Both the position numbers and the translations under genes were made by a program. From an uncultured delta proteobacterium (lineage in GTDB: Bacteria > Desulfobacterota > Binatia > Binatales > Binataceae), in the NCBI GenBank assembly GCA_963842085.1, contig CAWJET010000001.1:1184001-1248000 (forward strand): a DNA stretch of 64,000 nt. Reading direction: 5' to 3'. The notes under the pieces were generated by a model, which had not been told where the DNA came from, made no database searches, and was given only the letters and a program-made list of their open reading frames with translations. Positions 2,447-58,369 of this stretch are shown here, piece after piece. Each line of letters opens with the position of its first letter. Positions within the stretch are counted from its first letter, which is position 1.

Positions 2447-3373
2447 ATGGCGGATAAGCTTACGCCTTCGGACGTGAAAGGATTGTTCGAGAAGCTCAGC
2501 AATTGGGGGCGCTGGGGTAAGGATGACCAGCGCGGCGCCCTGAACTTTATCACCAATCAAAAACGGGCGGCCGCAGCGCGCCTGGTGCAAACCGGCGAGA
2601 GCGTATCGATGGCGCTGCCGCTCGCCACGATCCCCGCGCCCGACAACCCTTTGCCGGTCACTCACCTGATGGTGCAAGCGGGCCACGACTCGCAGGAGCA
2701 GGCTCTGCCCCATGTCGGCGACTATTTCGCGATCGCGCCGCATGGTTATTCCAATACTCACCTCGACGCTCTTTGCCACGTGTTCTGGCAAAACAAAATG
2801 TATAACGGCTTCGACGCAAGCGAAGTCGGCTCGCATGGCGCAAAAAAGTGCGCGATCGACGTGACCCGCGCGGGCATCGTCAGTCGCGGCGTCCTGCTGG
2901 ATATTCCACGCCTCAAAAAAATCGAATGGATGGAACCGGGCGAAAAGATCCTGCCTGAAGATCTCGACGCCGCCGAGAAAGCGCAGCACGTTCACGTCGA
3001 AGAAGGCGACGTGCTGATGATTCGCACGGGCCGCGCGGCGATGCGCAAGGTCAAAGGCGGATGGGATCCTTACAGGGTCGGACTGCCCGGCCTCGACGCC
3101 GCCTGCCTGCCATGGCTCCACGAGCGGCGCGTAGCAGTTCTCGGCAGCGACGCGGTCAGCGACGTGTTCCCGAGCGGTTACGACGGGGTCCCGCTGCCGA
3201 TTCACGTCGGCACGCTGGTCGCGATGGGCATCCACCTGATCGACAACGCCGACCTCGACGCGGTCTCGTCAGCCTGCGCCGGACTCGGGCGCAACGAGTT
3301 CATGTTCTCGATGGCGCCGCTGATCCTCGAGCGCGGCACCGCGTCGCCGGTCAATCCACTCGCGATCTTTTGA
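2447..3373 (+). CDS. Cyclase family protein (kynurenine formamidase-like)
   Basis: NWGRWGKDDQRGALN N-terminus; HGYSNTHLDALCH metal motif; SPVNPLAIF end. Confidence 0.85.
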   Translation: MADKLTPSDVKGLFEKLSNWGRWGKDDQRGALNFITNQKRAAAARLVQTGESVSMALPLATIPAPDNPLPVTHLMVQAGHDSQEQALPHVGDYFAIAPHGYSNTHLDALCHVFWQNKMYNGFDASEVGSHGAKKCAIDVTRAGIVSRGVLLDIPRLKKIEWMEPGEKILPEDLDAAEKAQHVHVEEGDVLMIRTGRAAMRKVKGGWDPYRVGLPGLDAACLPWLHERRVAVLGSDAVSDVFPSGYDGVPLPIHVGTLVAMGIHLIDNADLDAVSSACAGLGRNEFMFSMAPLILERGTASPVNPLAIF

Positions 3374-50961: not shown

Positions 50962-51723
50962 ATGAGAACGCTCAGGATTGTAACTCTCGGCCTCGTGCTG
51001 CTTGCCTCGGGATCGGCTCGCGCCCAGGGCGTCGTACTGCCGCTGCCGCCCCAGGACCAGCAAAGGATAACCGCACAGCTCGGACCGGGTGTCGTGGGCA
51101 TCGCATTACCCAGCCAGCCAATCAGCGATCCCAGCGTCTTCTTTCCACTTCAAGCCAAAGCGCTGACCTACCAGGTCATGGCCGGCCCAAATGCCGGCAA
51201 CACTCAGTCTCTGGGACTCTTCAAGACACGGCGTCCAAGCGGGGCGTCTGCATGGCGGTTTCAATTATCGCCGTCGCTCGCTGGGTTCCTTCGTCAGAGC
51301 GCGGAGGGCGATATCATAATGCCTGCCGTGAGCGATGCCGGCGAGGGTGTGGTTGTGGTCACTACGCCTCCTAATCCATTCGTGCCCAAGGGCATGCAGC
51401 CGGGCGAGACGCGGACCTACTCGCAGCGAGTCTCGGTAAATTACCTGGACGATCCATCGGACCAGAAATATTCCGGCTCGGTCACCGGAACTTATACTTA
51501 TGTCGGCACCTATCAAGTCACTGTGCCCGCGGGTACGTTCCCGGCGGTGCTGTTTCGCGTTCATTGTGATGGCAAGGTCGGGCCTGCTCACACGGTTAAC
51601 ACTGGCTACAACTTTTTTGCGCCGGGCGTCGGCATGGTCGCCATGATCTTGCAAGAAGACGTGACGGCTTTCTGGATCTTCAACATCGATAGCACCACCG
51701 GCAAGGTGCTGATGTCGAATTGA
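50962..51723 (+). CDS. Hypothetical exported protein
   Basis: Signal peptide ending ARA; VTVPAGTF and FAPGVGMV motifs. Confidence 0.65.
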   Translation: MRTLRIVTLGLVLLASGSARAQGVVLPLPPQDQQRITAQLGPGVVGIALPSQPISDPSVFFPLQAKALTYQVMAGPNAGNTQSLGLFKTRRPSGASAWRFQLSPSLAGFLRQSAEGDIIMPAVSDAGEGVVVVTTPPNPFVPKGMQPGETRTYSQRVSVNYLDDPSDQKYSGSVTGTYTYVGTYQVTVPAGTFPAVLFRVHCDGKVGPAHTVNTGYNFFAPGVGMVAMILQEDVTAFWIFNIDSTTGKVLMSN

Positions 51724-52050
51724 AATGAGGGCGAACAGTCTGCACAAGAACAAAACTGCATCGAAAATCTGTTCAGCCGAGATGCGAGATGGCGCGGCGG
51801 GTGCGGATTTGGCAGGGGAGGCGAAATGATCATGAGATGGACCGCGGCTGGAGTTCTGGAAAGCCGAGCTCAACTTCCGCAAGGTCGCCGGCTTTGGCGC
51901 GCTCGAGAGGCTCGACACCGCCCTGCGCGCTCATGATGCCGCGATCAATCCAGGAGTTGATAATCGAAGGCAGGCCAACTAAATTATCCAGCCGCTACTC
52001 AATTCCAACAGCGAATGGGACATCGCCCACGATTGAGGGCGCTACGTATT

Positions 52051-52345
52051 ATGCTTGGGTTCAACCTGGACATTTGGGACTATGCGACGTTTGTCGCCAT
52101 TTTCATCCAGGCCGCCGCTGCCGTTGTAGTGCTCGTTTTGCTTGCGGGATTGCCCGGTCGGATCGCGATCGGGGGGCATCATCCTGAAGCAGAAGCAGGT
52201 AAAATCATGGGCTGGGCAGGGTTTCTAGCCGCAGTTCAGTGGATCCAGGCCTTCATCTGGGCGTTCAAACCGACCGAAGGGTGGACATTCGACGCTTTCC
52301 TTCCGAAGAGCGAATAGCTGAAGCAGCGGATCTCGCTCGGCTAGG
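52051..52345 (+). pseudogene. DUF3302 (YibI-like) membrane protein with 3' frameshift
   Basis: LAGLPGRIA..HPEAEA..MGW..WIQAFIWAFKPT; continuation VDIRRFP in another frame. Confidence 0.6.
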
Positions 52346-52528
52346 TTGTGGTAAGCGGATGCCAGCCTCGGGGAATATATGCCGCCCCCCCTCCAACACC
52401 TCGGCCCGAGGGTTCTTTATAATGTGGGTGACGCGCCCCGCGAAACTAGTACGACCGGCAGTTGAGAAATTCGGCCTGGCGTGGTCGGTTAGTGCCGGTA
52501 TTTCCGGCGGTTTGAAACCTCCAGTAGC

Positions 52529-52851
52529 TCAACTGAGAACCTCTCGCAAACCGTCCGACGAAGCCGTCTCGCGCGCTGCGGTTTGCCAGCGGTCGGCGAA
52601 CTCCTCGGGCGCAGGGTCGCCGAGCGCACTGTGCGGGCGAACCTGGTTGTAATCTAGCCGCCACTGCTCGAGCTTGTCGCGCGCGTCGGCCACAGTGAAG
52701 AAGACCTGTACGTTCAAGCACTCATCACGCAGCCGACCGTTGAACGATTCGACGAAAGCGTTCTGGGCCGGTTTGCCGGGTTCGATGTAATGCCACTCCA
52801 GTCGCCCGGTGGCCCAACGCAGCACTGCGCAGCTGGTGAGCTCGGTCCCGT
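52529..52851 (-). pseudogene. IS3 orfB 3' half
   Basis: TELTS...IEPGKPAQNAFVESFNGRLRDECLN...YNQVRPHSALG. Confidence 0.9.
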
Positions 52852-52940
52852 AGTACGTCGGGAAGCGGTCATGGCCGACGATTAACACTCCTGCGATGGT
52901 TGCGGTGCAAGCCCAACCTTTAGCGGGAGGATCTCCAGCC

Positions 52941-54380
52941 ATGACCGAGAGCAACGATACGCCCCAACGCGTGACACTGGTAGCGGTGGACATCGCCAAG
53001 CACTATCACGATGTTCTTATCGAACCGCCGGCTCCGAAACGACGATGTCGGCTGCGACTGGCGAACAATCTCGAGGATTTTGAGCACTTGGCCGGTTATC
53101 TGAGAGGGTTCAAGAGTTCGGTGTTGGTCGGCTTTGAAGCGACCGGGAACTATCATCGGCCGCTGGCGTATTTTCTCCACCGCCAGGGTTGCGAGCTGCG
53201 TCTGATTTCTACTCTGGCGCTGGCCCGTACTCGCGAAGCCATGCACAACTCATGGGATAAGAACGATCCGAAGGACGCCCAAGTGATCCTCCATCTGTTG
53301 AAGACCGGATTGGCGCAGACCTGGCACGATCCAGTCGTCAACGGCATCAACGATATTCAGGAACTCTCGAAGACCCATTTCCAGGTGACGCTGGCGCGGG
53401 TACGGGTCTGGCACACGCTGCGCAACCTCTATTTCCCGGAGATTGATCGCTTCGTTCGCTCGGACCATAGCGTTTGGTTGATCCAACTGTTGGCCAGCTT
53501 TCCGACGCCGGCCTCGATTACCGCGTTGAGCGAAGAGGAGTTCCAGACGCGGGCGTGGAACCTGGTCGGCCGCAAAGTGAGCAAGCGGGCGCTGCTGGCG
53601 GAGATCTACACTGCCGCGAAACGGTCGATCGGTGTGCCGGTGGCGATCGATAGTGCCGCCATTGCAATGTTCCGCCTGGTTCTCGAGCAGTATTTGATCC
53701 TGCATCAGTTGCGTGAGCGGATCGCCGAACAGGCTGCGCTCCTGTTGGAAGGTAATTCCGATAGCCGGCGACTCATGACCGTGCCGGGCATCGGGCCGGC
53801 CAACGCCCTAACCATTCTTGCCGAGGCCGGCGATCTACGCCGCTTCCGGCACCATCGCCAGTCCCTGAATTTCTGCGGCTTGAACCTCTCCACCCTGCAG
53901 TCGGGTAAATCGCGTGGTCAGAGCCACATCTCGAAGTACGGCAATGCCAGGCTGCGTACCGCTTTGTGGATGGCGGCGCAGACCGCGGTCCGACTGCGGG
54001 AGAACAGTTTCCGTCGCAAGTTCGACAACTACGTTCGCGGCAATCCGCTCGATGCGGACCTCCGGCGTAAGGCTTACACTGCGGTCGCTGCCAAGCTGGC
54101 GCGAGTGATCTTCGGGTTGATCAAGCATCAGGTCGATTATCGGCCGTTTTTTGAACACCAGTTCCAGGTGGAGGAGCCCTCTCGTGCAAGTGCCGTTGGG
54201 GCGGTTTCGACCCCGTCGATAATGTTCGGGCCTTCCACCTGGGTTGGCATATCTGTTTTGAGTTCGGTGAGGACCACAGCGCTTGGCCTGCTGGATCCTG
54301 TGTTTACTATGGTGAGAGCCGCGCCCACACCTGAGGTGGAACCACTTGGATTGCCTGTTCGCATCAGTACGGCTGCGTAG
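52941..54380 (+). CDS. IS110 DEDD recombinase/transposase (homology ends near 54155)
   Basis: AVDIAK, GFEATG, KNDPKDA (DEDD); VPGIGP; QSG catalytic Ser; SKYGNARLR; GGGAGG RBS. Confidence 0.92.
   Translation: MTESNDTPQRVTLVAVDIAKHYHDVLIEPPAPKRRCRLRLANNLEDFEHLAGYLRGFKSSVLVGFEATGNYHRPLAYFLHRQGCELRLISTLALARTREAMHNSWDKNDPKDAQVILHLLKTGLAQTWHDPVVNGINDIQELSKTHFQVTLARVRVWHTLRNLYFPEIDRFVRSDHSVWLIQLLASFPTPASITALSEEEFQTRAWNLVGRKVSKRALLAEIYTAAKRSIGVPVAIDSAAIAMFRLVLEQYLILHQLRERIAEQAALLLEGNSDSRRLMTVPGIGPANALTILAEAGDLRRFRHHRQSLNFCGLNLSTLQSGKSRGQSHISKYGNARLRTALWMAAQTAVRLRENSFRRKFDNYVRGNPLDADLRRKAYTAVAAKLARVIFGLIKHQVDYRPFFEHQFQVEEPSRASAVGAVSTPSIMFGPSTWVGISVLSSVRTTALGLLDPVFTMVRAAPTPEVEPLGLPVRISTAA
54164..54330 (+). 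ncRNA. Putative bridge RNA (target-binding and donor-binding loops)
   Basis: Two stem/internal-loop/stem lobes whose loop strands match target and donor junction sequences (see findings). Confidence 0.65.
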
Positions 54381-54611
54381 CAGTCCGGGAGCTTTAGCTC
54401 CCGCTAACTACCCACTCAGCCGCAGTGGCGGCGCCGGTCAAGGGCGGCGTCAGCCGGCGAGCTCCGCGAGCGAACCCTTGACGGTGCGCCGACACGGAGG
54501 CTACAGCGCCGGTTCACCGTCCCTAGACTATTGCGCAATCGTAGCCCACTGCTCGCTTCGCGAGCCCTCGCAGATGTGTGTTCGCTCCCGGCCATTGCTT
54601 TCTTACTTAGT

Positions 54612-55159
54612 CCGTTGTCGCTAACCACCATCCGTGGCAGTGCGCGCTCAGCTGTTAGCCGGTCCAGTTCGCGCACCACGCGCACCCCGCCCAGTGAAGT
54701 GTCCACCACCGTAGCCAGACATTCGCGGCTGAAGTCGTCGACCACGCATAGGATGCGGAAGCGCCGCCCGTCGCTCAGTGCGTCTGCCACGAAGTCCAGT
54801 GACCACCGTTGGTTGATCGCGCCCGGTAGCGTCATCGGCGCCCTGGTTCCCAGCGCCCGCTTGCGCCCTCTGCGCCGGCGTACCATGAGCTTTTCCTCGC
54901 GGTACAACCGATAGAGCTTCTTGCGGTTCAGCACGTGACCTTCCCTCTCCAGCAGCCAGCCCAGGCGCCGATAGCCGAAGCGTCTGCGCTCCGCGGCCAG
55001 CTCGCGCAGCCGCTGCCGCAGCAGCGAGTCGTCCGGCCGCCGCGGCCGATAGTTCATGCTCGAGCGATTGACTCCGACCAGCCTGCATGCGCGCACCTGG
55101 CTCAGCCCGCGCTGCTCGACCAATCGAGCAACTGCCGCCTTCCGCGCCACAGGTTTCAA
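54612..55159 (-). pseudogene. IS3 orfB 5' half
   Basis: RRFGYRRL, WSLDFVAD, VVDDFSRECL, VVSDNG. Confidence 0.9.
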
Positions 55160-55422
55160 ACGTTTTTTCCGAGCAGGTCCTTCAGCGCCGCGTTGTCCAG
55201 CATCGACTCCGCCAGCAGCTTCTTCAGCCGCCGGTTCTCATCCTCCAGCGACTTCAGGCGGCGCGCCTCGGATACGTCGAGCCCGCCATACTTCGCTTTC
55301 CACTTGTAAAAGGTCGCGCTTGAGATCCCGTGGCGGCGGCCGACCTCCTCGGTCTTCGCCCCCGCCTCATGGTCGCGCAGCACCCCGATGATCTGCTCCG
55401 CGCTGAATCGGCTGCCTTTCAT
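55156..55422 (-). CDS. IS3 orfA with A-AAA-AAC -1 frameshift site
   Basis: MKGSRFSAEQII, HGISSATFYKWKAKYGG, ENRRLKKLLA; GGA AAA AAC at the end. Confidence 0.92.
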   Translation of the reverse strand: MKGSRFSAEQIIGVLRDHEAGAKTEEVGRRHGISSATFYKWKAKYGGLDVSEARRLKSLEDENRRLKKLLAESMLDNAALKDLLGKNV

Positions 55423-55491
55423 TGTCCGTCTCCTTTCTGTCGACGGACTCTACCTCAATTCTGCTGGGCGTTAGGCGGGCAGGCCAGCGGT

Positions 55492-55854
55492 CTATGTACC
55501 CAAGTTTTTCATCTTGTTGGCTTTTATCGGTACCCGAGTCAGAAGTGTCGTTAGAATCAGGTGCAGGACGACCGCCGGCCACAGTAGTATGCCGTTCAAA
55601 CCGCCCGCGAAGCCGACGTAGGCGAGATACAGCGTGACGGCCGCGCTGTAGGTCAACATGCCGGCCAGCGGCGGCCCCGGCCAGCACGCAATACTTAACG
55701 CGATCAGCGCGATACCGGCCACGCGGGCGGCCGGTACCGCAACGCCGGTAAGTTCCTCGCCGAACAACAACTTCCCAACGAGCGACGGAACAATCAGCAA
55801 CGCCACGCCAGTCGCCGCTTCGCCCATGGCGGCAAGAGTAAGCCACCTACTCAT
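55492..55854 (-). CDS. Small 4-TM membrane protein
   Basis: EAATGVALLIVP...LLWPAVVLH; immediately downstream of the sulfatase. Confidence 0.65.
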   Translation of the reverse strand: MSRWLTLAAMGEAATGVALLIVPSLVGKLLFGEELTGVAVPAARVAGIALIALSIACWPGPPLAGMLTYSAAVTLYLAYVGFAGGLNGILLWPAVVLHLILTTLLTRVPIKANKMKNLGT

Positions 55855-55867
55855 CGGCCGGTGCTAG

Positions 55868-58369
55868 CTAGTCCTTCGCGCGGGCCACCGCGTCCTCAAT
55901 GGCCGGCATGTTCTTGCGATCCTGATCCGTGTACTGCGCCGGGCCCAGGTTGAAGGTCAGCTTGTCGATCTTGCCCGTGAACTTGAACGGACAATCATAA
56001 CGATACTCGACGAGCGCAACCCCGGTTAGTGTATCCAACCCGACGTCGAAGTCTTCGTCTTCGGGGAACGTGATGGGAGTGGTGTGATCCATGTGCTTCT
56101 TATCCACTTCCTTGCCGTCCACCGATAGCACTCCCGTGCCGCCCTTGCCGAGGCCGGGGCCGTCGAGCTTGAAGTCGAACACGATCGTGTGCTCGCCGGC
56201 GCTCAGTTCCGGCCCTTCCCAAATCGTGCGCTTGAGATCGAGCAGATTGTAAAGGAACACGACCTTCCCGTGGCGGACTCCCATCTCACCCTTGGAGAGG
56301 AATAAGCCGTAGCCGCCGAAGCGACCGCCCTCGGTCACGATCATGCCTTCGGCGCCGCCCTCGGGGATGTCGACATTGGCGGTGATGGTGTAGTCCTTGT
56401 CCAGGATGTTCGGGGCGCTGCTCGGCGGCACGCCGCTCAGTTCGCCTGAATAGGTGAATGTGGTCCGTCCGGCTGTGGCGCTCGGGCGCTGCGTCAGGAA
56501 GCGAGCGAGGGTCGAGTTGTCGAGCGGGAGCACATCGTATTTCTTAGCCTGCTCATAGAAAACATCCTGCAGTTGCTTGAGCTTGTCCGGCATCTTGTCG
56601 GCCAGGTCGTTGTACTCGGTGACATCTACATTGAGGTTGTAGAGTTCCCACTTGTAACCGGTAATCACATCCGGCGGCGTGGCGGTGCTCAGCTCCCACG
56701 GAAGACTTACCGGCGTCGTCACCGCTATCCATCCGTCCTGGTAGATCGCGCGGTTCCCGAGCATCTCGAAATATTGCGTCGTGTGGCGGGTTGGTGCGTC
56801 GGCGTTCTTCTTGTCCCACGTGTACACCATGCTCACGCCTTCAATCGGGCGCTGCTTGATGCCGTCGATTGTGTCGGGAGCCGGGATGCCGGTCACCTCG
56901 AGGATCGTGGGCACGATGTCGATGACGTGAGAAAACTGGCGGCGGATGCCACCGACGTCCGTGATGTGGCCGGGCCATGACATGGCCATGCCATTGGCCG
57001 TCCCGCCGCGATGCGACGCGATCTGCTTCACCCACTTGAACGGGGTATCCATCGCCCACGCCCAGCCGGCCGCATAGAGGGGAAAGGTCCGATCCGATCC
57101 CCAGAAGTCGTACCAGAGAAACTGGTCCTTGACCGGCACGGCGACGCCGTTGAAGGTTGTGAACTCGTTTGGCGTACCGTTGAGCATACCCTCGGCGCTC
57201 GCGCCGTTGTCGCCGCTTATATAGATGATCAAGGTGTTGTCGAGCTCGCCGAGGTCGTCGACGGCCTGGATGACGCGGCCGATTTCGTGGTCGGTGTATG
57301 CGAGGAACGCCGCATAGACGTCGGCCTGCTTGATGTACAGTTTTTTCTGCTCGAGGCTCAGGGTATCCCACGCCGGAAGATCCTTCGGCCACGGCGTCAA
57401 CTTGGCATCGGCGGGCATGATGCCAAGCCGTTTCTGGTTGGCAAAGATGGTATCGCGCAATTTGTTCCAGCCACCGTCGAACAGGTTCTGATCGCTGATC
57501 TTTTTAATCCACTCGGGCGTCGGATGATGGGGCGCGTGAGTACCGCCCGGAACGTAGTAGACGAAGAACGGCTTGCCGGGAGCGATCTCCTTGAGCTGCC
57601 TCATGTACTGGATGGCGTCGTCAGCCATCGCGGTGGTGAGATTCCAACCAGGGTGCCCCTGGAAGGGGTAGATGGCCGTCGTGTTGCGGAACAGGTTCGG
57701 TTGCCACTGGCTGGTGTCGCCGCCGATGAAGCCGTAGAAATACTCGAAGCCCATCCCGATGGGCCATTGGTCGAATGGCCCGGCCTGGCTCGCCTGGTAA
57801 AAGGGCGTGTTGTGGTCCTTGCCGAACCACGCGGTCGCGTATCCGTTTTCCTTGAGGATCTCGCCGATGGTGCCGGTATCCTTCCTTATAATCGAATCGT
57901 ACCCCGGGAATCCGGTTGCCGCCTCGCCAACAACCCCAAAGCCGGCCACGTGATGATTTCGTCCCGTGATCAAGGCGGCGCGGGTGGGTGAGCATAACGA
58001 CGTAGTATGGAACTGCGTGTACCGCAGCCCGCTGTTCGCAATGCGATCCAACGCCGGAGTCTCGATGACGCCGCCAAAGGTGCTAGGCGCGCCGAAGCCT
58101 ACGTCGTCGGTCATGATGAGCAGCACGTTCGGCGCACCCTTGGGCGGCACAATGCGCGGCGGCCACCAAGGCGTTGACTCCGAGGCTCTTCCCTTGATCA
58201 CCCCGCCGAATTTCGGATCGGGCGGCGGAAGTTGATTTCCGGGGATGGTCGTGGTGGCGTTAGGTGAACCCAACTCACCTGTGACTTCCTGCGCGAGGCA
58301 AGAGGATGAAGGAAGCGTAAAGGCTGCGATGCAAAGCGCTACGGCGACAACATGTCTGAGTGCAATCAT
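55868..58369 (-). CDS. Exported arylsulfatase (Cys-type, FGly-dependent)
   Basis: IMTDDVG, LCSPTRAALITGRNH, FGKDH, GDNG; C-terminal beta-sandwich. Confidence 0.92.
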   Translation of the reverse strand: MIALRHVVAVALCIAAFTLPSSSCLAQEVTGELGSPNATTTIPGNQLPPPDPKFGGVIKGRASESTPWWPPRIVPPKGAPNVLLIMTDDVGFGAPSTFGGVIETPALDRIANSGLRYTQFHTTSLCSPTRAALITGRNHHVAGFGVVGEAATGFPGYDSIIRKDTGTIGEILKENGYATAWFGKDHNTPFYQASQAGPFDQWPIGMGFEYFYGFIGGDTSQWQPNLFRNTTAIYPFQGHPGWNLTTAMADDAIQYMRQLKEIAPGKPFFVYYVPGGTHAPHHPTPEWIKKISDQNLFDGGWNKLRDTIFANQKRLGIMPADAKLTPWPKDLPAWDTLSLEQKKLYIKQADVYAAFLAYTDHEIGRVIQAVDDLGELDNTLIIYISGDNGASAEGMLNGTPNEFTTFNGVAVPVKDQFLWYDFWGSDRTFPLYAAGWAWAMDTPFKWVKQIASHRGGTANGMAMSWPGHITDVGGIRRQFSHVIDIVPTILEVTGIPAPDTIDGIKQRPIEGVSMVYTWDKKNADAPTRHTTQYFEMLGNRAIYQDGWIAVTTPVSLPWELSTATPPDVITGYKWELYNLNVDVTEYNDLADKMPDKLKQLQDVFYEQAKKYDVLPLDNSTLARFLTQRPSATAGRTTFTYSGELSGVPPSSAPNILDKDYTITANVDIPEGGAEGMIVTEGGRFGGYGLFLSKGEMGVRHGKVVFLYNLLDLKRTIWEGPELSAGEHTIVFDFKLDGPGLGKGGTGVLSVDGKEVDKKHMDHTTPITFPEDEDFDVGLDTLTGVALVEYRYDCPFKFTGKIDKLTFNLGPAQYTDQDRKNMPAIEDAVARAKD

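What the first reader, a model, noticed from the sequence alone, without database searches (positions are those of the whole stretch)
52840..54625. Transposon that targets transposons: insertion into the IS3 catalytic Asp motif, with guide tuned to codon wobble
Seen: the IS110 splits IS3 orfB exactly at VVSDNG|TEL, the second D of the DDE triad. The putative right guide reads C-GAT-AAT-G (Asp-Asn-Gly) with U at both third codon positions, so it could pair with GAC/GAT and AAC/AAT alike. The left guide GTGCCGT is the reverse complement of AC-GGC-AC (Asn-Gly-Thr, common GGC codon). Inference: the guide tracks a protein-constrained motif, giving a safe, abundant target across many IS3 variants and inactivating them. 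From memory, ISEc21 has been reported to target this IS3 motif, so the behaviour may not be new. The wobble reading and right-end RNA location should be compared with it.
Basis: partly seen in the sequence, partly recalled or inferred. Interest (0 to 1): 0.72.

Follow-up and report, generated by a model that had tools for sequence, protein, structure and literature searches.

The report
RNA-guided IS110 element targeting transposase catalytic codons
A mobile element of the IS110 family sits in the codons for the catalytic Asp-Asn-Gly motif of another transposon's transposase, steered there by its own guide RNA, whose bases at the synonymous codon positions can pair with either codon variant; related behaviour is already known for ISEc21.

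Summary
Window 52852-54615 (+) is an IS110-family element (DEDD and Transposase_20 domains). It splits a minus-strand IS3 orfB inside GAC-AAC-GGG, at the second D of a D(35)E motif. A 99%-identical copy elsewhere in the genome splits a different IS3 at the same codons.

Among 74 relatives from other genomes, nearly every readable junction lies in GAY-AAY-G of an integrase-fold transposase. Most are IS3; one is IS30, and some resemble IS481 or Mu transposases.

The region downstream of the transposase gene folds into a covariation-supported two-loop bridge RNA. The right guide reads GAUAAUG in 53 of 54 elements. Its two U face the Asp and Asn third positions, and the left guide's G faces Asn3 on the other strand. 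Occupied sites and 21 intact sites carry both codon variants, so wobble tolerance is supported by comparison. Selection for it is inferred only.

ISEc21 already shows IS3 catalytic-codon targeting. This ISMex12-like clade differs: about 22% transposase identity, RNA downstream, opposite orientation, insertion 4-5 nt further on. It is a new member of a known kind and probably convergent.

The parts
52852..54615 (+). IS110-family insertion sequence (ISMex12-like clade), 1764 bp, counting the right-hand CCGT as part of the element
   Evidence: Limits come from alignment to the second copy and to intact IS3 copies. The head-to-tail junction ...AGGAC-GT-AGCAC... in relatives L038-L042 shows that one GT/CGT lies between the right and left ends.
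52848..52851 (+). Target-side CCGT at the left junction, repeated at 54612-54615
   Evidence: Both copies align to the same 4 nt of intact IS3 copies. The intact site is GGTCCCGTTGTCGCT on this strand.
52852..52940 (+). Short non-coding left end (89 nt). Its first bases AGT pair with the right donor guide.
   Evidence: The left-end triplet co-varies with the right donor guide across loci.
52941..54380 (+). Transposase ORF, 479 aa. The conserved recombinase is about residues 14-398; the last ~75 codons are read-through across the bridge RNA.
   Evidence: Pfam DEDD_Tnp_IS110 at 14-162 and Transposase_20 at 276-359. NCBIfam NF033542 at 211.5 bits, cut-off 140, residues 14-398. PDB IS621 transposase E=7e-18. 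In relatives the ORF stops inside the target-binding loop.
54164..54242 (+). [quoted passage not shown] Outer stem 54164-54179 with 54228-54242; inner hairpin 54197-54215.
   Evidence: Consensus fold of 22 sequences. Pairs hold in 97.8% of cells, 15 of 29 pairs have compensatory changes, and 0 of 500 shuffles reach the observed values. Coordinates.
54187..54196 (+). Left target guide CAAGUGCCGU, same sense as this strand, so it pairs with the coding strand of Asn-Gly-Thr
   Evidence: Position-wise pairing with left flanks in 45 events. Guide U versus G at position -5 follows target T versus G (Fisher p=1e-4). Retargeted variant in L046/L048.
54216..54224 (+). Right target guide UCGAUAAUG, which reads as GAU-AAU-G and pairs with C-R-T-T-R-T-C of this strand
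   Evidence: GAUAAUG in 53 of 54 non-redundant elements and in 4 of 4 plasmid copies examined.
54256..54312 (+). Donor-binding loop. Left donor guide 54256-54268, hairpin 54269-54299, right donor guide 54300-54312.
   Evidence: All 6 hairpin pairs are kept and 5 have compensatory changes. Guides co-vary with the element ends: left donor guide versus right end TAC/TAC 37, GAC/GAC 19; right donor guide versus left end GCU/AGC 48, ACU/AGT 4, GUU/AAC 1.
54351..54588 (+). Lineage-specific G+C-rich 238-nt stretch between the bridge RNA and the right end. Absent from most relatives.
   Evidence: Gap in the alignment. In this genome it is found only in the two copies of the element.
54616..55159 (-). 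IS3 orfB N-terminal part (HTH_21 and the start of rve), ending ...VVSDN
   Evidence: Pfam. It is 96.5% identical to three intact copies in the same genome.
55156..55422 (-). IS3 orfA (HTH_Tnp_1)
52532..52851 (-). IS3 orfB C-terminal part (rve_3), starting G-TELTS
   Evidence: Pfam. It is only 82-84% identical to the intact copies over 234-237 nt.

Best explanation
This is an IS110-family, bridge-RNA-guided insertion sequence of the clade that NCBI annotation calls ISMex12-like.

Layout and RNA. The element has the IS1111-style layout: a short left end and a guide RNA encoded downstream of the transposase gene, overlapping the gene's 3' end. The RNA has two internal loops.

Target-binding loop. 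The 5' side (..GUGCCGU here, ..GGGCCGU in most relatives) has the sense of the non-coding strand of the target. It pairs with the coding strand of AAY-GGN-(A/C)C. The 3' side (GAUAAUG) pairs with the other strand across GAY-AAY-G.

Donor-binding loop. Its two sides pair with the element's own right and left ends.

Reaction. The DEDD/Ser recombinase then joins the circularised element into the Asn codon of the D-N-G motif, always antisense to the transposase gene. That splits the catalytic core and so inactivates the host transposase.

Third positions. The guide bases facing the synonymous positions of Asp and Asn are U in the right guide. The left guide has G facing Asn3 on the other strand. 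These can pair with both codon variants (rU with dA or dG, rG with dC or dT). The four-fold Gly third position is simply tolerated as a mismatch. One guide thus recognises a protein-constrained motif across many diverged transposase genes.

Shown here: element limits, domains, the RNA fold with covariation, guide-target and guide-end complementarity with covariation, a clade-wide common site, and natural G/A variants beside one guide.

Inferred: expression and processing of the RNA, the circular intermediate, the exact crossover point, and that the U/G bases are kept by selection for breadth.
For: 1. Family. Pfam DEDD_Tnp_IS110 and Transposase_20 match. NCBIfam 'IS110 family RNA-guided transposase' scores 211.5 bits against a cut-off of 140. 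IS621 and ISCro4 transposase structures are the only PDB sequence hits. The D, E, D..D and SG(K/S)S positions align.

2. Same site, independent events.
- Two copies in this genome sit in two different IS3 elements.
- 59 of 76 loci are flanked by IS3-orfB halves on the opposite strand.
- Junctions read ...GGNCC(G/A)T|AGCAC... and ...TAGTACGT|T(G/A)TC....
- All three plasmid copies whose right end could be read abut ...D-N: Kozakia, Sulfitobacter and Brucella pituitosa. The Methylorubrum copy shows G-P-E-F at its left junction; its right end is cut by another IS.
- Flanking genes also include IS30 (123 bits, cut-off 80) and IS481- or Mu-like rve proteins with weak hits only.

3. RNA fold. In 22 sequences, 97.8% of cells pair and 15 of 29 pairs have compensatory changes. 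No shuffle of 500 reaches the observed values. Slid controls pair in 33-50% of cells.

4. Guides (54 non-redundant elements, 45 with a left flank, 45 with a right flank).
- Right guide positions: C paired in 36 of 37 readable. R1 is 16 Watson-Crick, 20 wobble, 1 mismatch. T 37 of 37. T 44 of 45. R2 is 8 Watson-Crick, 35 wobble, 1 mismatch. T and C 43 of 44 each. The next three positions look random.
- Left guide positions: 0, -2 and -3 paired in 44-45 of 45. Position -1 (Asn3) is 25 Watson-Crick, 19 wobble, 1 mismatch. Position -4 (Gly3) is 17, 10 and 18.

5. Covariation with the target. Guide U versus G at position -5 tracks Thr-type versus Pro-type targets (9 of 12 against 3 of 29). In L046/L048 the left guide GCUGUCGU faces GCTGTCGT and GCTATCAT of a D-N-D gene.

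6. One guide, several codon variants. Identical copies in one genome lie next to G/G, A/G and G/A sites (L014-L020). Of 35 events with both flanks, 18 carry at least one A and one carries a C.

7. Variation exists before insertion. 21 distinct intact D-N-G sites read GACAAC 8, GACAAT 7, GATAAT 5 and GATAAC 1.

8. Wobble tolerance has precedent. G.U and G.T wobbles are tolerated at defined guide positions of ISPpu10 and IS621 (preprint 10.64898/2026.03.19.712850, passages read).

9. Strand rules match the IS621 model: left guide to the bottom strand, right guide to the top strand, core included in both. IS1111-group bridge RNAs lie in the right end (Durrant et al. 2024, PMC11208160, passages read).
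Against: - No RNA evidence: no Rfam family reached threshold, and nothing could be checked about expression.
- The single-sequence minimum-energy fold of the window RNA does not reproduce the consensus fold.
- The G/A at the left junction (Asn3) might be inherited from the donor rather than the target. The right junction is always G. This weakens the Asn3 count but not the Asp3 count.
- The events are related elements, so the Fisher test and the counts overstate independence.
- Conserved U could be a tolerated relic of an A+T-rich ancestral target.
- About 11 copies of an IS481-like element in this genome carry GACAACGGACC and are unoccupied. The motif alone is therefore not sufficient, or the element is barely active. 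The second copy has a frameshifted transposase gene.
- The register of the left donor guide needs a one-base bulge to put GU on the core.
Confidence: 0.85

Rival explanations
1. The mechanism is the same, but the U and G at third-codon positions are not an adaptation. They are a frozen relic of an ancestral GAT-AAT target, kept only because wobble pairs happen to be tolerated. Breadth is a by-product.
For: GATAAT, the perfect complement, occurs in 5 of 21 intact sites. One element (L027) has drifted to GACAAUG, and three (L005, L027, L109) have A instead of G in the left guide. Wobble tolerance is a general property of these recombinases.
Against: The 7-mer is unchanged in 53 of 54 elements whose transposases differ by 20-55% and whose hosts are G+C-rich. 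Most occupied sites carry G (35 of 44 at Asp3). A neutral U-to-C change would improve pairing with the commonest target, yet it is nearly absent.
Confidence: 0.3
2. The shared site reflects spread of composite IS3::IS110 units by descent, horizontal transfer or mobilisation in trans, not repeated targeting.
For: Some loci share identical flanks (L016, L017, L019, L022; L038-L042). An interrupted IS3 keeps its ends and could be moved by intact copies.
Against: Flanking transposases are 31-65% identical to the window's IS3 and include other families. Identical IS110 copies sit in at least four different IS3 sequences in one genome. The guides are complementary to the site and co-vary with it.
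Confidence: 0.04
3. Site choice is made by the protein or by a DNA structure at the site, and the complementarity of the downstream region is incidental.
For: No direct RNA or biochemical data exist for this clade.
Against: There are compensatory changes in the helices that frame the guide strings, a retargeted guide in L046/L048 and donor-guide covariation. Experiments on relatives show that the non-coding RNA is required.
Confidence: 0.03

Closest known systems
ISEc21 (IS110 family; Siddiquee et al. 2024, Nat Commun, PMC11187229; passages read)
   Same: [quoted passage not shown] No target duplication.
   Different: - Its non-coding RNA is upstream of tnp; here it is downstream.
- Its Tnp is 358 aa; here about 400-437 aa.
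- Only 21-24% identity over two partial BLASTP segments (E=0.003).
- It inserts right after the D codon of H-S-D|Q-G, in the same orientation as orfB. Here insertion is in the Asn codon of D-N-G, antisense to orfB.
- It hits a different IS3 subgroup.
IS621 and its bridge RNA (Durrant et al. 2024, PMC11208160; passages read)
   Same: Two-loop RNA. The left guides pair with the bottom strand and the right guides with the top strand, and the core is included in both. DEDD plus Ser recombinase; nearest solved structure.
   Different: IS621's RNA lies in the left end, its core is CT and its targets are REP-like. Here the RNA is in the right end, the shared bases are (C)RT, and the target is a coding motif.
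IS1111-group elements (ISEc11, ISPa11, ISKpn4; Siddiquee et al. 2024)
   Same: Short left end, long right end carrying the guide RNA downstream of tnp. The apparent short duplication is assigned to the element.
   Different: - Their Tnp is stated as about 330-350 aa; here about 400-437 aa.
- Subterminal inverted repeats were significant in only 1 of 7 elements tested.
- The RNA overlaps the tnp 3' end here, whereas it lies 39-86 nt after the stop in ISEc11 and ISPa11.
ISMex12 (name taken from the RefSeq annotation of Methylorubrum extorquens CM4 pCMU01)
   Same: 54% aa identity. The same GAUAAUG guide, and a left junction in ...GGACCGT of a G-P-E-F gene. It is a catalogued member of this clade.
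   Different: A different host phylum. That copy's donor loop is cut by an IS3-like ISMch1. No paper in the searched library mentions ISMex12.
IS4321/IS5075 (IS1111 family; known only from the reference title listed, otherwise recalled)
   Same: IS110/IS1111-family elements that target another transposon.
   Different: [quoted passage not shown]

Membership tests
IS110 family (sensu lato) | DEDD (RuvC-like) N-terminal domain plus the Transposase_20 C-terminal domain | tested here: met
   Pfam PF01548 (E=2.6e-19) and PF02371 (E=5.4e-25). NCBIfam NF033542 at 211.5 bits against a cut-off of 140.
IS110 family (sensu lato) | Catalytic D-E-D-D and the Ser nucleophile are conserved | tested here: met
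   The alignment to the IS621 transposase (8wt6) keeps D in VAVDIAK, E in FEATG, D..D in DPKDA and S in QSGKS. Which IS621 residues are catalytic is recalled, not taken from a call.
IS110 family (sensu lato) | No terminal inverted repeats, no true target duplication, site-specific insertion | tested here: met
   The only redundancy is 4 nt (CCGT). In relatives the right copy differs from the target (ACGT against CCRT). The site is common to the clade.
IS110 family (sensu lato) | Circular intermediate with abutted ends | not testable with these tools
   The only proxy is the head-to-tail junction RE-GT-LE in L038-L042 and L055.
Bridge RNA / seekRNA | Structured non-coding RNA with an internal loop whose two sides match opposite strands of the target | tested here: met
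Bridge RNA / seekRNA | A second loop matching the element's own ends (donor) | tested here: met
   Covariation of both donor guides with the right and left ends. The inner hairpin has 5 of 6 compensatory pairs. The outer stem and the exact register are not settled.
Bridge RNA / seekRNA | The RNA is made and binds the recombinase | not testable with these tools
   No expression data could be examined. No Rfam family reached threshold.
IS1111 group | Guide RNA in a long right end, with a short left end | tested here: met
   The left end is 89 nt. The right end is about 235 nt after the ORF and about 460 nt after the conserved Tnp part. The same layout is seen in 22 aligned relatives.
IS1111 group | Subterminal inverted repeats of 7-17 bp | tested here: inconclusive
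   A local alignment of the left end against the reverse-complemented right end beat 300 shuffles in only 1 of 7 elements (L004). In the window, 37 of 300 shuffles did as well. Short split matches exist, for example 52885-52899 with 54565-54579.
IS1111 group | Transposase of about 330-350 aa related over its full length to that of IS1111 | tested here: not met
   For length, the conserved part is about 400 aa and relatives' ORFs are 418-432 aa. Relatedness to IS1111 itself was not tested, because no reference sequence was at hand (one search failed).
ISEc21 cluster | Upstream non-coding region, Tnp of 345-385 aa, close sequence relationship | tested here: not met
   The non-coding region is downstream here. 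BLASTP identity is 21-24% over partial segments, E=0.003.

The most novel reading that the evidence does not exclude
A widespread ISMex12-like clade has evolved a codon-aware guide. The clade is found here in Acidobacteriota, several orders of Alphaproteobacteria, and MAGs labelled Nitrospinota and Bdellovibrionaceae.

- An almost invariant right guide reads GAU-AAU-G.
- A left guide ends in CCGU.
- Both use rU-dG and rG-dT wobble at the synonymous Asp and Asn positions, and tolerate a mismatch at Gly3.

In this way the guide recognises a protein motif, the D-N-G of integrase-fold DDE transposases, rather than one DNA sequence. It thereby parasitises and inactivates IS3, IS30 and IS481/Mu-like elements. 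This would have arisen independently of ISEc21, making the second catalytic Asp of rve transposases a convergent 'safe harbour' for RNA-guided insertion sequences.
Probability: 0.5. Interest if true: 0.7.

Novelty: new member of a known kind. Interest (0 to 1): 0.55.

Why it matters
- It gives a natural example of an RNA guide shaped around the genetic code. Invariant guide bases face first and second codon positions. Wobble-capable bases face two-fold degenerate positions. A tolerated mismatch faces the four-fold one. That is a design rule that could be tested directly for bridge recombinases.
- Transposon-on-transposon targeting of the catalytic Asp of integrase-fold transposases now appears in two very distant IS110 lineages. 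In some genomes it has hit most copies: 8 of 10 IS3 orfB genes in one Granulicella MAG. That bears on how insertion-sequence loads are limited.
- The general behaviour is already published for ISEc21, which limits the surprise.

Tried and rejected
- Rfam scan of 52300-55600 at E<=1. The only hit was a sub-threshold one (Scr6925, 26.9 bits against 50, minus strand). No bridge-RNA family matched.
- Public sequencing runs: no RNA holder listed.
- Single-sequence fold of 54160-54352. The minimum-energy structure differs from the alignment consensus, so I relied on covariation.
- Subterminal inverted repeats: not significant in 6 of 7 elements.
- The first regular expressions for guides found nothing or picked the wrong upstream string for the L004 group. 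They were replaced.
- In one search, 3 of 13 ORF checks were unusable (L001, L046, L053), because of a wrong frame or a frameshift.
- Fetching ISEc11 as an IS1111 reference failed, because the accession is not in the collection. No tree was built to place the clade between IS110 and IS1111.
- Pfam and NCBIfam gave no family for the N-parts of the D-N-D target gene of L043, L046 and L069. Its family stays unknown.
- BLASTP could not align the E. coli IS3 N-part with this IS3 across the D. The equivalence of the two D residues rests on their spacing to the aligned E region.
- I considered whether the A at left junctions comes from the donor through a core heteroduplex. Intact sites show AAT in 12 of 21, so a target origin is plausible, but this is not settled.
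- Supplements are closed. Supplementary Fig. 11 and the target logos for more than 300 ISfinder entries in Siddiquee et al. may already show the ISMex12 target, and I could not see them.
- The claim that the wobble reading and this clade's target are not in print rests on searches only.
Full report
**What is in the window**

Reading 51000-56500 and listing ORFs shows an IS3-family element on the minus strand.
- orfA is at 55156-55422 (HTH_Tnp_1).
- The orfB N-part ends ...ALPRMVVSDN(G) near 54611-54622 (HTH_21 and the start of rve).
- The orfB C-part starts (G)TELTSCAVLRW... at about 52849 and runs to 52532 (rve_3).

Between the two orfB parts lies a plus-strand gene with Pfam DEDD_Tnp_IS110 and Transposase_20. 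It scores 211.5 bits on NCBIfam 'IS110 family RNA-guided transposase', cut-off 140, over residues 14-398. Its only sequence relatives among solved structures are the IS621 and ISCro4 transposases. The D, E, D..D and Ser positions align; which residues are catalytic in IS621 is my recollection.

The intact form of this IS3 occurs three times in the same genome and reads AGC GAC AAC GGG ACC GAG CTC. In it the D of SDNG is residue 178 and the E of VESF is residue 213.

**Limits of the element**

Alignment with the intact IS3 copies shows that window 52848-52851 and 54612-54615, both CCGT, match the same four bases. The insertion point is therefore defined only to within these bases.

In relatives the left junction reads ...GGNCC(G/A)T|AGCAC... 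and the right junction ...TAGTACGT|T(G/A)TC.... The copy at the right end (ACGT) differs from the target (CCRT), so I assign it to the element. This follows the practice described for IS1111-type elements (passage read). The element is then 52852-54615.

Head-to-tail copies in L038-L042 and L055 show ...AGGAC-GT-AGCAC.... This is the expected abutted-end junction.

**Not chance, and not one event**

The genome holds a second copy, 99% identical, whose transposase gene is frameshifted. It lies in a different IS3 (37% identity in the N-part) at ITVDN|G-TEF.

A scan of one genome per species returned 74 related loci at 34-81% aa identity. They carry Acidobacteriota, Hyphomonadaceae, Nitrospinota, Bdellovibrionaceae and other labels.
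- In 59 of 76 loci (including the two own copies), tblastn with the two halves of the window's IS3 finds both or one half on the opposite strand. The hits almost always end at residue 182-183 of the N-half and start at residue 2-3 of the C-half.
- Loci without such hits still show D-N-G-x-(E/D/Q)-F at the junctions. One flank is an IS30-family transposase (L044, 123 bits against a cut-off of 80). Two are rve proteins with weak IS481 or IS3 hits and a Mu-like C-terminus (L011, L059). Four (L043, L046, L048, L069) belong to an unclassified gene reading T-D-N-D-S-V-F or C-D....
- Among plasmids of cultured bacteria, 201 records hold a relative. All three copies whose right end could be read abut ...D-N. 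The fourth examined is annotated 'ISMex12 family' on Methylorubrum extorquens pCMU01. It has its left junction in ...GAACTCCGGACCGT, that is G-P-E-F.

**The RNA**

The region downstream of the conserved transposase part is alignable across the clade.

RNAalifold on 22 non-identical sequences gives these features:
- a long outer stem;
- an internal loop;
- an inner hairpin;
- a second inner hairpin further on.

Counting on that structure gives the following:
- 97.8% of cells pair.
- 15 of 29 pairs have changes on both sides.
- None of 500 shuffles reaches the observed paired fraction or covariation score.
- Sliding the partners by 1-3 columns drops pairing to 33-50%.

In the window, the first loop is 54164-54242. 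Its 5' strand is CAAGUGCCGU (54187-54196) and its 3' strand is UCGAUAAUG (54216-54224). The second loop has UUUUGAGUUCGGU (54256-54268) and GUGUUUACUAUGG (54300-54312).

The strand logic is that published for IS621. The 5' strand of each loop has the sense of the top strand and so pairs with the bottom strand. The 3' strand pairs with the top strand, and both reach into the shared core (passage read).

**Guide-target pairing across the clade**

From 62 loop-bearing loci I kept 54 non-redundant elements, of which 45 have a left flank and 45 a right flank.

Right guide. It is GAUAAUG in 53 of 54; L027 has GACAAUG. It faces top-strand C-R-T-T-R-T-C as follows.

| Top-strand base | Result |
|---|---|
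| C | 36 of 37 readable paired |
| first R (Asn3) | 16 Watson-Crick with A, 20 wobble with G, 1 mismatch |
| T | 37 of 37 |
| T | 44 of 45 |
| second R (Asp3) | 8 Watson-Crick, 35 wobble, 1 mismatch |
| T | 43 of 44 |
| C | 43 of 44 |
| next position | 6 paired, 38 mismatched |

The following two positions show no consistent pairing, so the guide ends there.

Left guide.

| Position | Result |
|---|---|
| 0 | 45 of 45 paired |
| -1 (Asn3) | 25 Watson-Crick, 19 rG-dT wobble, 1 mismatch |
| -2 | 44 of 45 paired |
| -3 | 44 Watson-Crick, 1 wobble |
| -4 (Gly3) | 17 Watson-Crick, 10 wobble, 18 mismatched (free) |
| -5 | 31 of 45 Watson-Crick |
| -6 | 40 of 45 Watson-Crick |
| -7 (third position of the next codon) | 16 Watson-Crick, 12 wobble, 17 mismatched |

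The recognised site is therefore about GG-N-CC-R-T-T-R-T-C. In coding sense this is GAY-AAY-GGN-CC.

**Covariation with the target and with the ends**

- Elements with U at left-guide position -5 (the window, its 81% relative L003, and the Hyphomonas group) sit in D-N-G-Thr/Ser targets with T there in 9 of 12 cases. Elements with G sit next to T in 3 of 29 (Fisher p=1e-4, not corrected for relatedness).
- In L046 and L048 the left guide has become GCUGUCGU. The left flanks are GCTGTCGT and GCTATCAT. The second differs only by two G-to-A changes, which would be rG-dT wobbles.
- The donor loop behaves the same way. The three bases of the left donor guide next to the core equal those of the right end: TAC/TAC 37, GAC/GAC 19, TTC/TTC 1. 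The exceptions are TTC/TCC in the window (a wobble) and GAC/AAC once.
- The right donor guide is the complement of the first three bases of the left end: GCU/AGC 48, ACU/AGT 4, GUU/AAC 1, and AUU/AGT 3 (wobble). ACU/AAT occurs once, in the second, defective copy.

**Are third-position variants really used?**

Copies with identical non-coding regions in one Granulicella MAG lie next to sites with (Asn3, Asp3) = A/G, G/G and G/A (L014-L020). Of 35 events with both flanks:
- 16 are G/G
- 13 are A/G
- 3 are A/A
- 2 are G/A
- 1 is C/G

Variation exists before insertion. Twenty-one distinct intact D-N-G sites were collected from the host genomes and from 40 relatives of the window's genome. They read GACAAC 8, GACAAT 7, GATAAT 5 and GATAAC 1. 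Copies of the window's own IS3 lineage at 80-96% identity differ at exactly these positions.

A guide with C instead of U would therefore mismatch 13 of these 21 sites. Wobble pairs at defined guide positions are tolerated experimentally in ISPpu10, and a G.T wobble occurs in IS621 (passages read).

What is not shown:
- That the U and G are maintained by selection. The rival is a tolerated relic.
- That the left-junction base always comes from the target. The right junction is always G, which fits a crossover to the right of that base, but a donor-inherited base is not excluded.

**Comparison with ISEc21**

Siddiquee et al. [quoted passage not shown] I fetched their E. coli copy. It lies at H-S-D|Q-G-S-Q-Y, in the same orientation as orfB. 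Its transposase aligns with the window's only in two partial segments at 21-24% identity (E=0.003).

The present clade therefore shares the idea, but not the lineage, the RNA position, the orientation, the exact site or the IS3 subgroup. Independent origin is the simpler reading, but I built no tree.

In passing, the best same-sense match to the left flank inside the published ISEc21 seekRNA span is CACAGCGAU against CATAGCGAC. This is again a U opposite Asp3. It is a single case from my own scan.

**Classification**

The element meets the IS110-family tests. It has the IS1111-style layout: the left end is 89 nt and the RNA lies in the right end. Two features fail or are unclear.
- Its transposase is about 400-437 aa, against the 330-350 aa stated for IS1111 members.
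- Subterminal inverted repeats were significant in only 1 of 7 elements.

I therefore file it as 'IS110 family, right-end bridge RNA, ISMex12-like', not as a proven IS1111-group member.

**Novelty**

No paper in the searched library mentions ISMex12. Searches found no description of this clade's target or of a codon-wobble reading.

**Verdict**

The behaviour has a published precedent in a distant relative. The new content is:
- a second, widespread and probably convergent clade;
- a target range wider than IS3;
- a guide whose degenerate-position bases fit codon wobble.

Function of the RNA and selection on those bases remain to be tested.

Noticed in passing
L142:2780-2920 (Methylorubrum extorquens CM4 pCMU01): The ISMex12-family copy is itself cut inside its donor-binding loop, just after the left donor guide, by an IS3-like ISMch1 whose transposase gene starts at 2911. 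An IS3 has landed in the guide RNA of an IS3-hunting element.
   Followed up: partly
window 52532-52851 versus 54616-55486: The two halves of the interrupted IS3 do not match equally. The N-part with orfA is 96.5% identical to the three intact copies. The C-part is only 82-84% identical over about 235 nt and then diverges. In a Granulicella MAG, L014 shares its left flank with L054 and its right flank with L018. This suggests recombination between IS110 copies sitting in different IS3 elements.
   Followed up: partly
window 54216-54380; L004, L008, L010, L023: In 4 of 10 readable relatives the transposase stop codon is the UAG of GUAGAUAAUG, overlapping the first base of the right target guide. 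In the other 6 it lies 10-24 nt upstream, still inside the loop. The window has UCG there, so its ORF runs about 75 codons on through the whole bridge RNA to 54380.
   Followed up: partly
window 54351-54588: A 238-nt G+C-rich stretch with hairpins lies between the bridge RNA and the right end. Most relatives lack it, and in this genome it occurs only in the two copies of the element. A weak minus-strand Rfam hit (Scr6925, E=0.11, below the gathering score) lies at 54378-54507.
   Followed up: partly
G000, e.g. C1:56548, C1:67475, C2:114639 (12 places listed): A multi-copy IS481-like element with R-L-L-S-D-N-G-P-S-Y carries GACAACGG(A/G)CC, which fits the right guide and most of the left guide. 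All listed copies are uninterrupted, so the motif alone does not ensure insertion.
   Followed up: no
G001 (genome of L016): Of 10 IS3-orfB genes found with the window's IS3 as query, 8 are split into N- and C-parts about 1.57 kb apart and only 2 are intact. In G002 the counts are about 3 split and 1 intact.
   Followed up: partly
L038-L042 about 2990-3010; L055 about 1383: Head-to-tail tandem copies of the element are present, with the junction ...AGGAC-GT-AGCAC.... The same arrangement occurs in five Hyphomonas/Henriciella assemblies.
   Followed up: no
L109:1-814 and L111:1-993: A second, different IS110-family transposase gene is annotated within 700 nt upstream of the ISMex12-like copy on the Kozakia and Brucella pituitosa plasmids. 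This may be nesting of IS110 elements.
   Followed up: no
L077:717-725 (ISEc21 non-coding region): My scan finds CACAGCGAU as the best same-sense match to the ISEc21 left flank CATAGCGAC, with U opposite the Asp third position.
   Followed up: no
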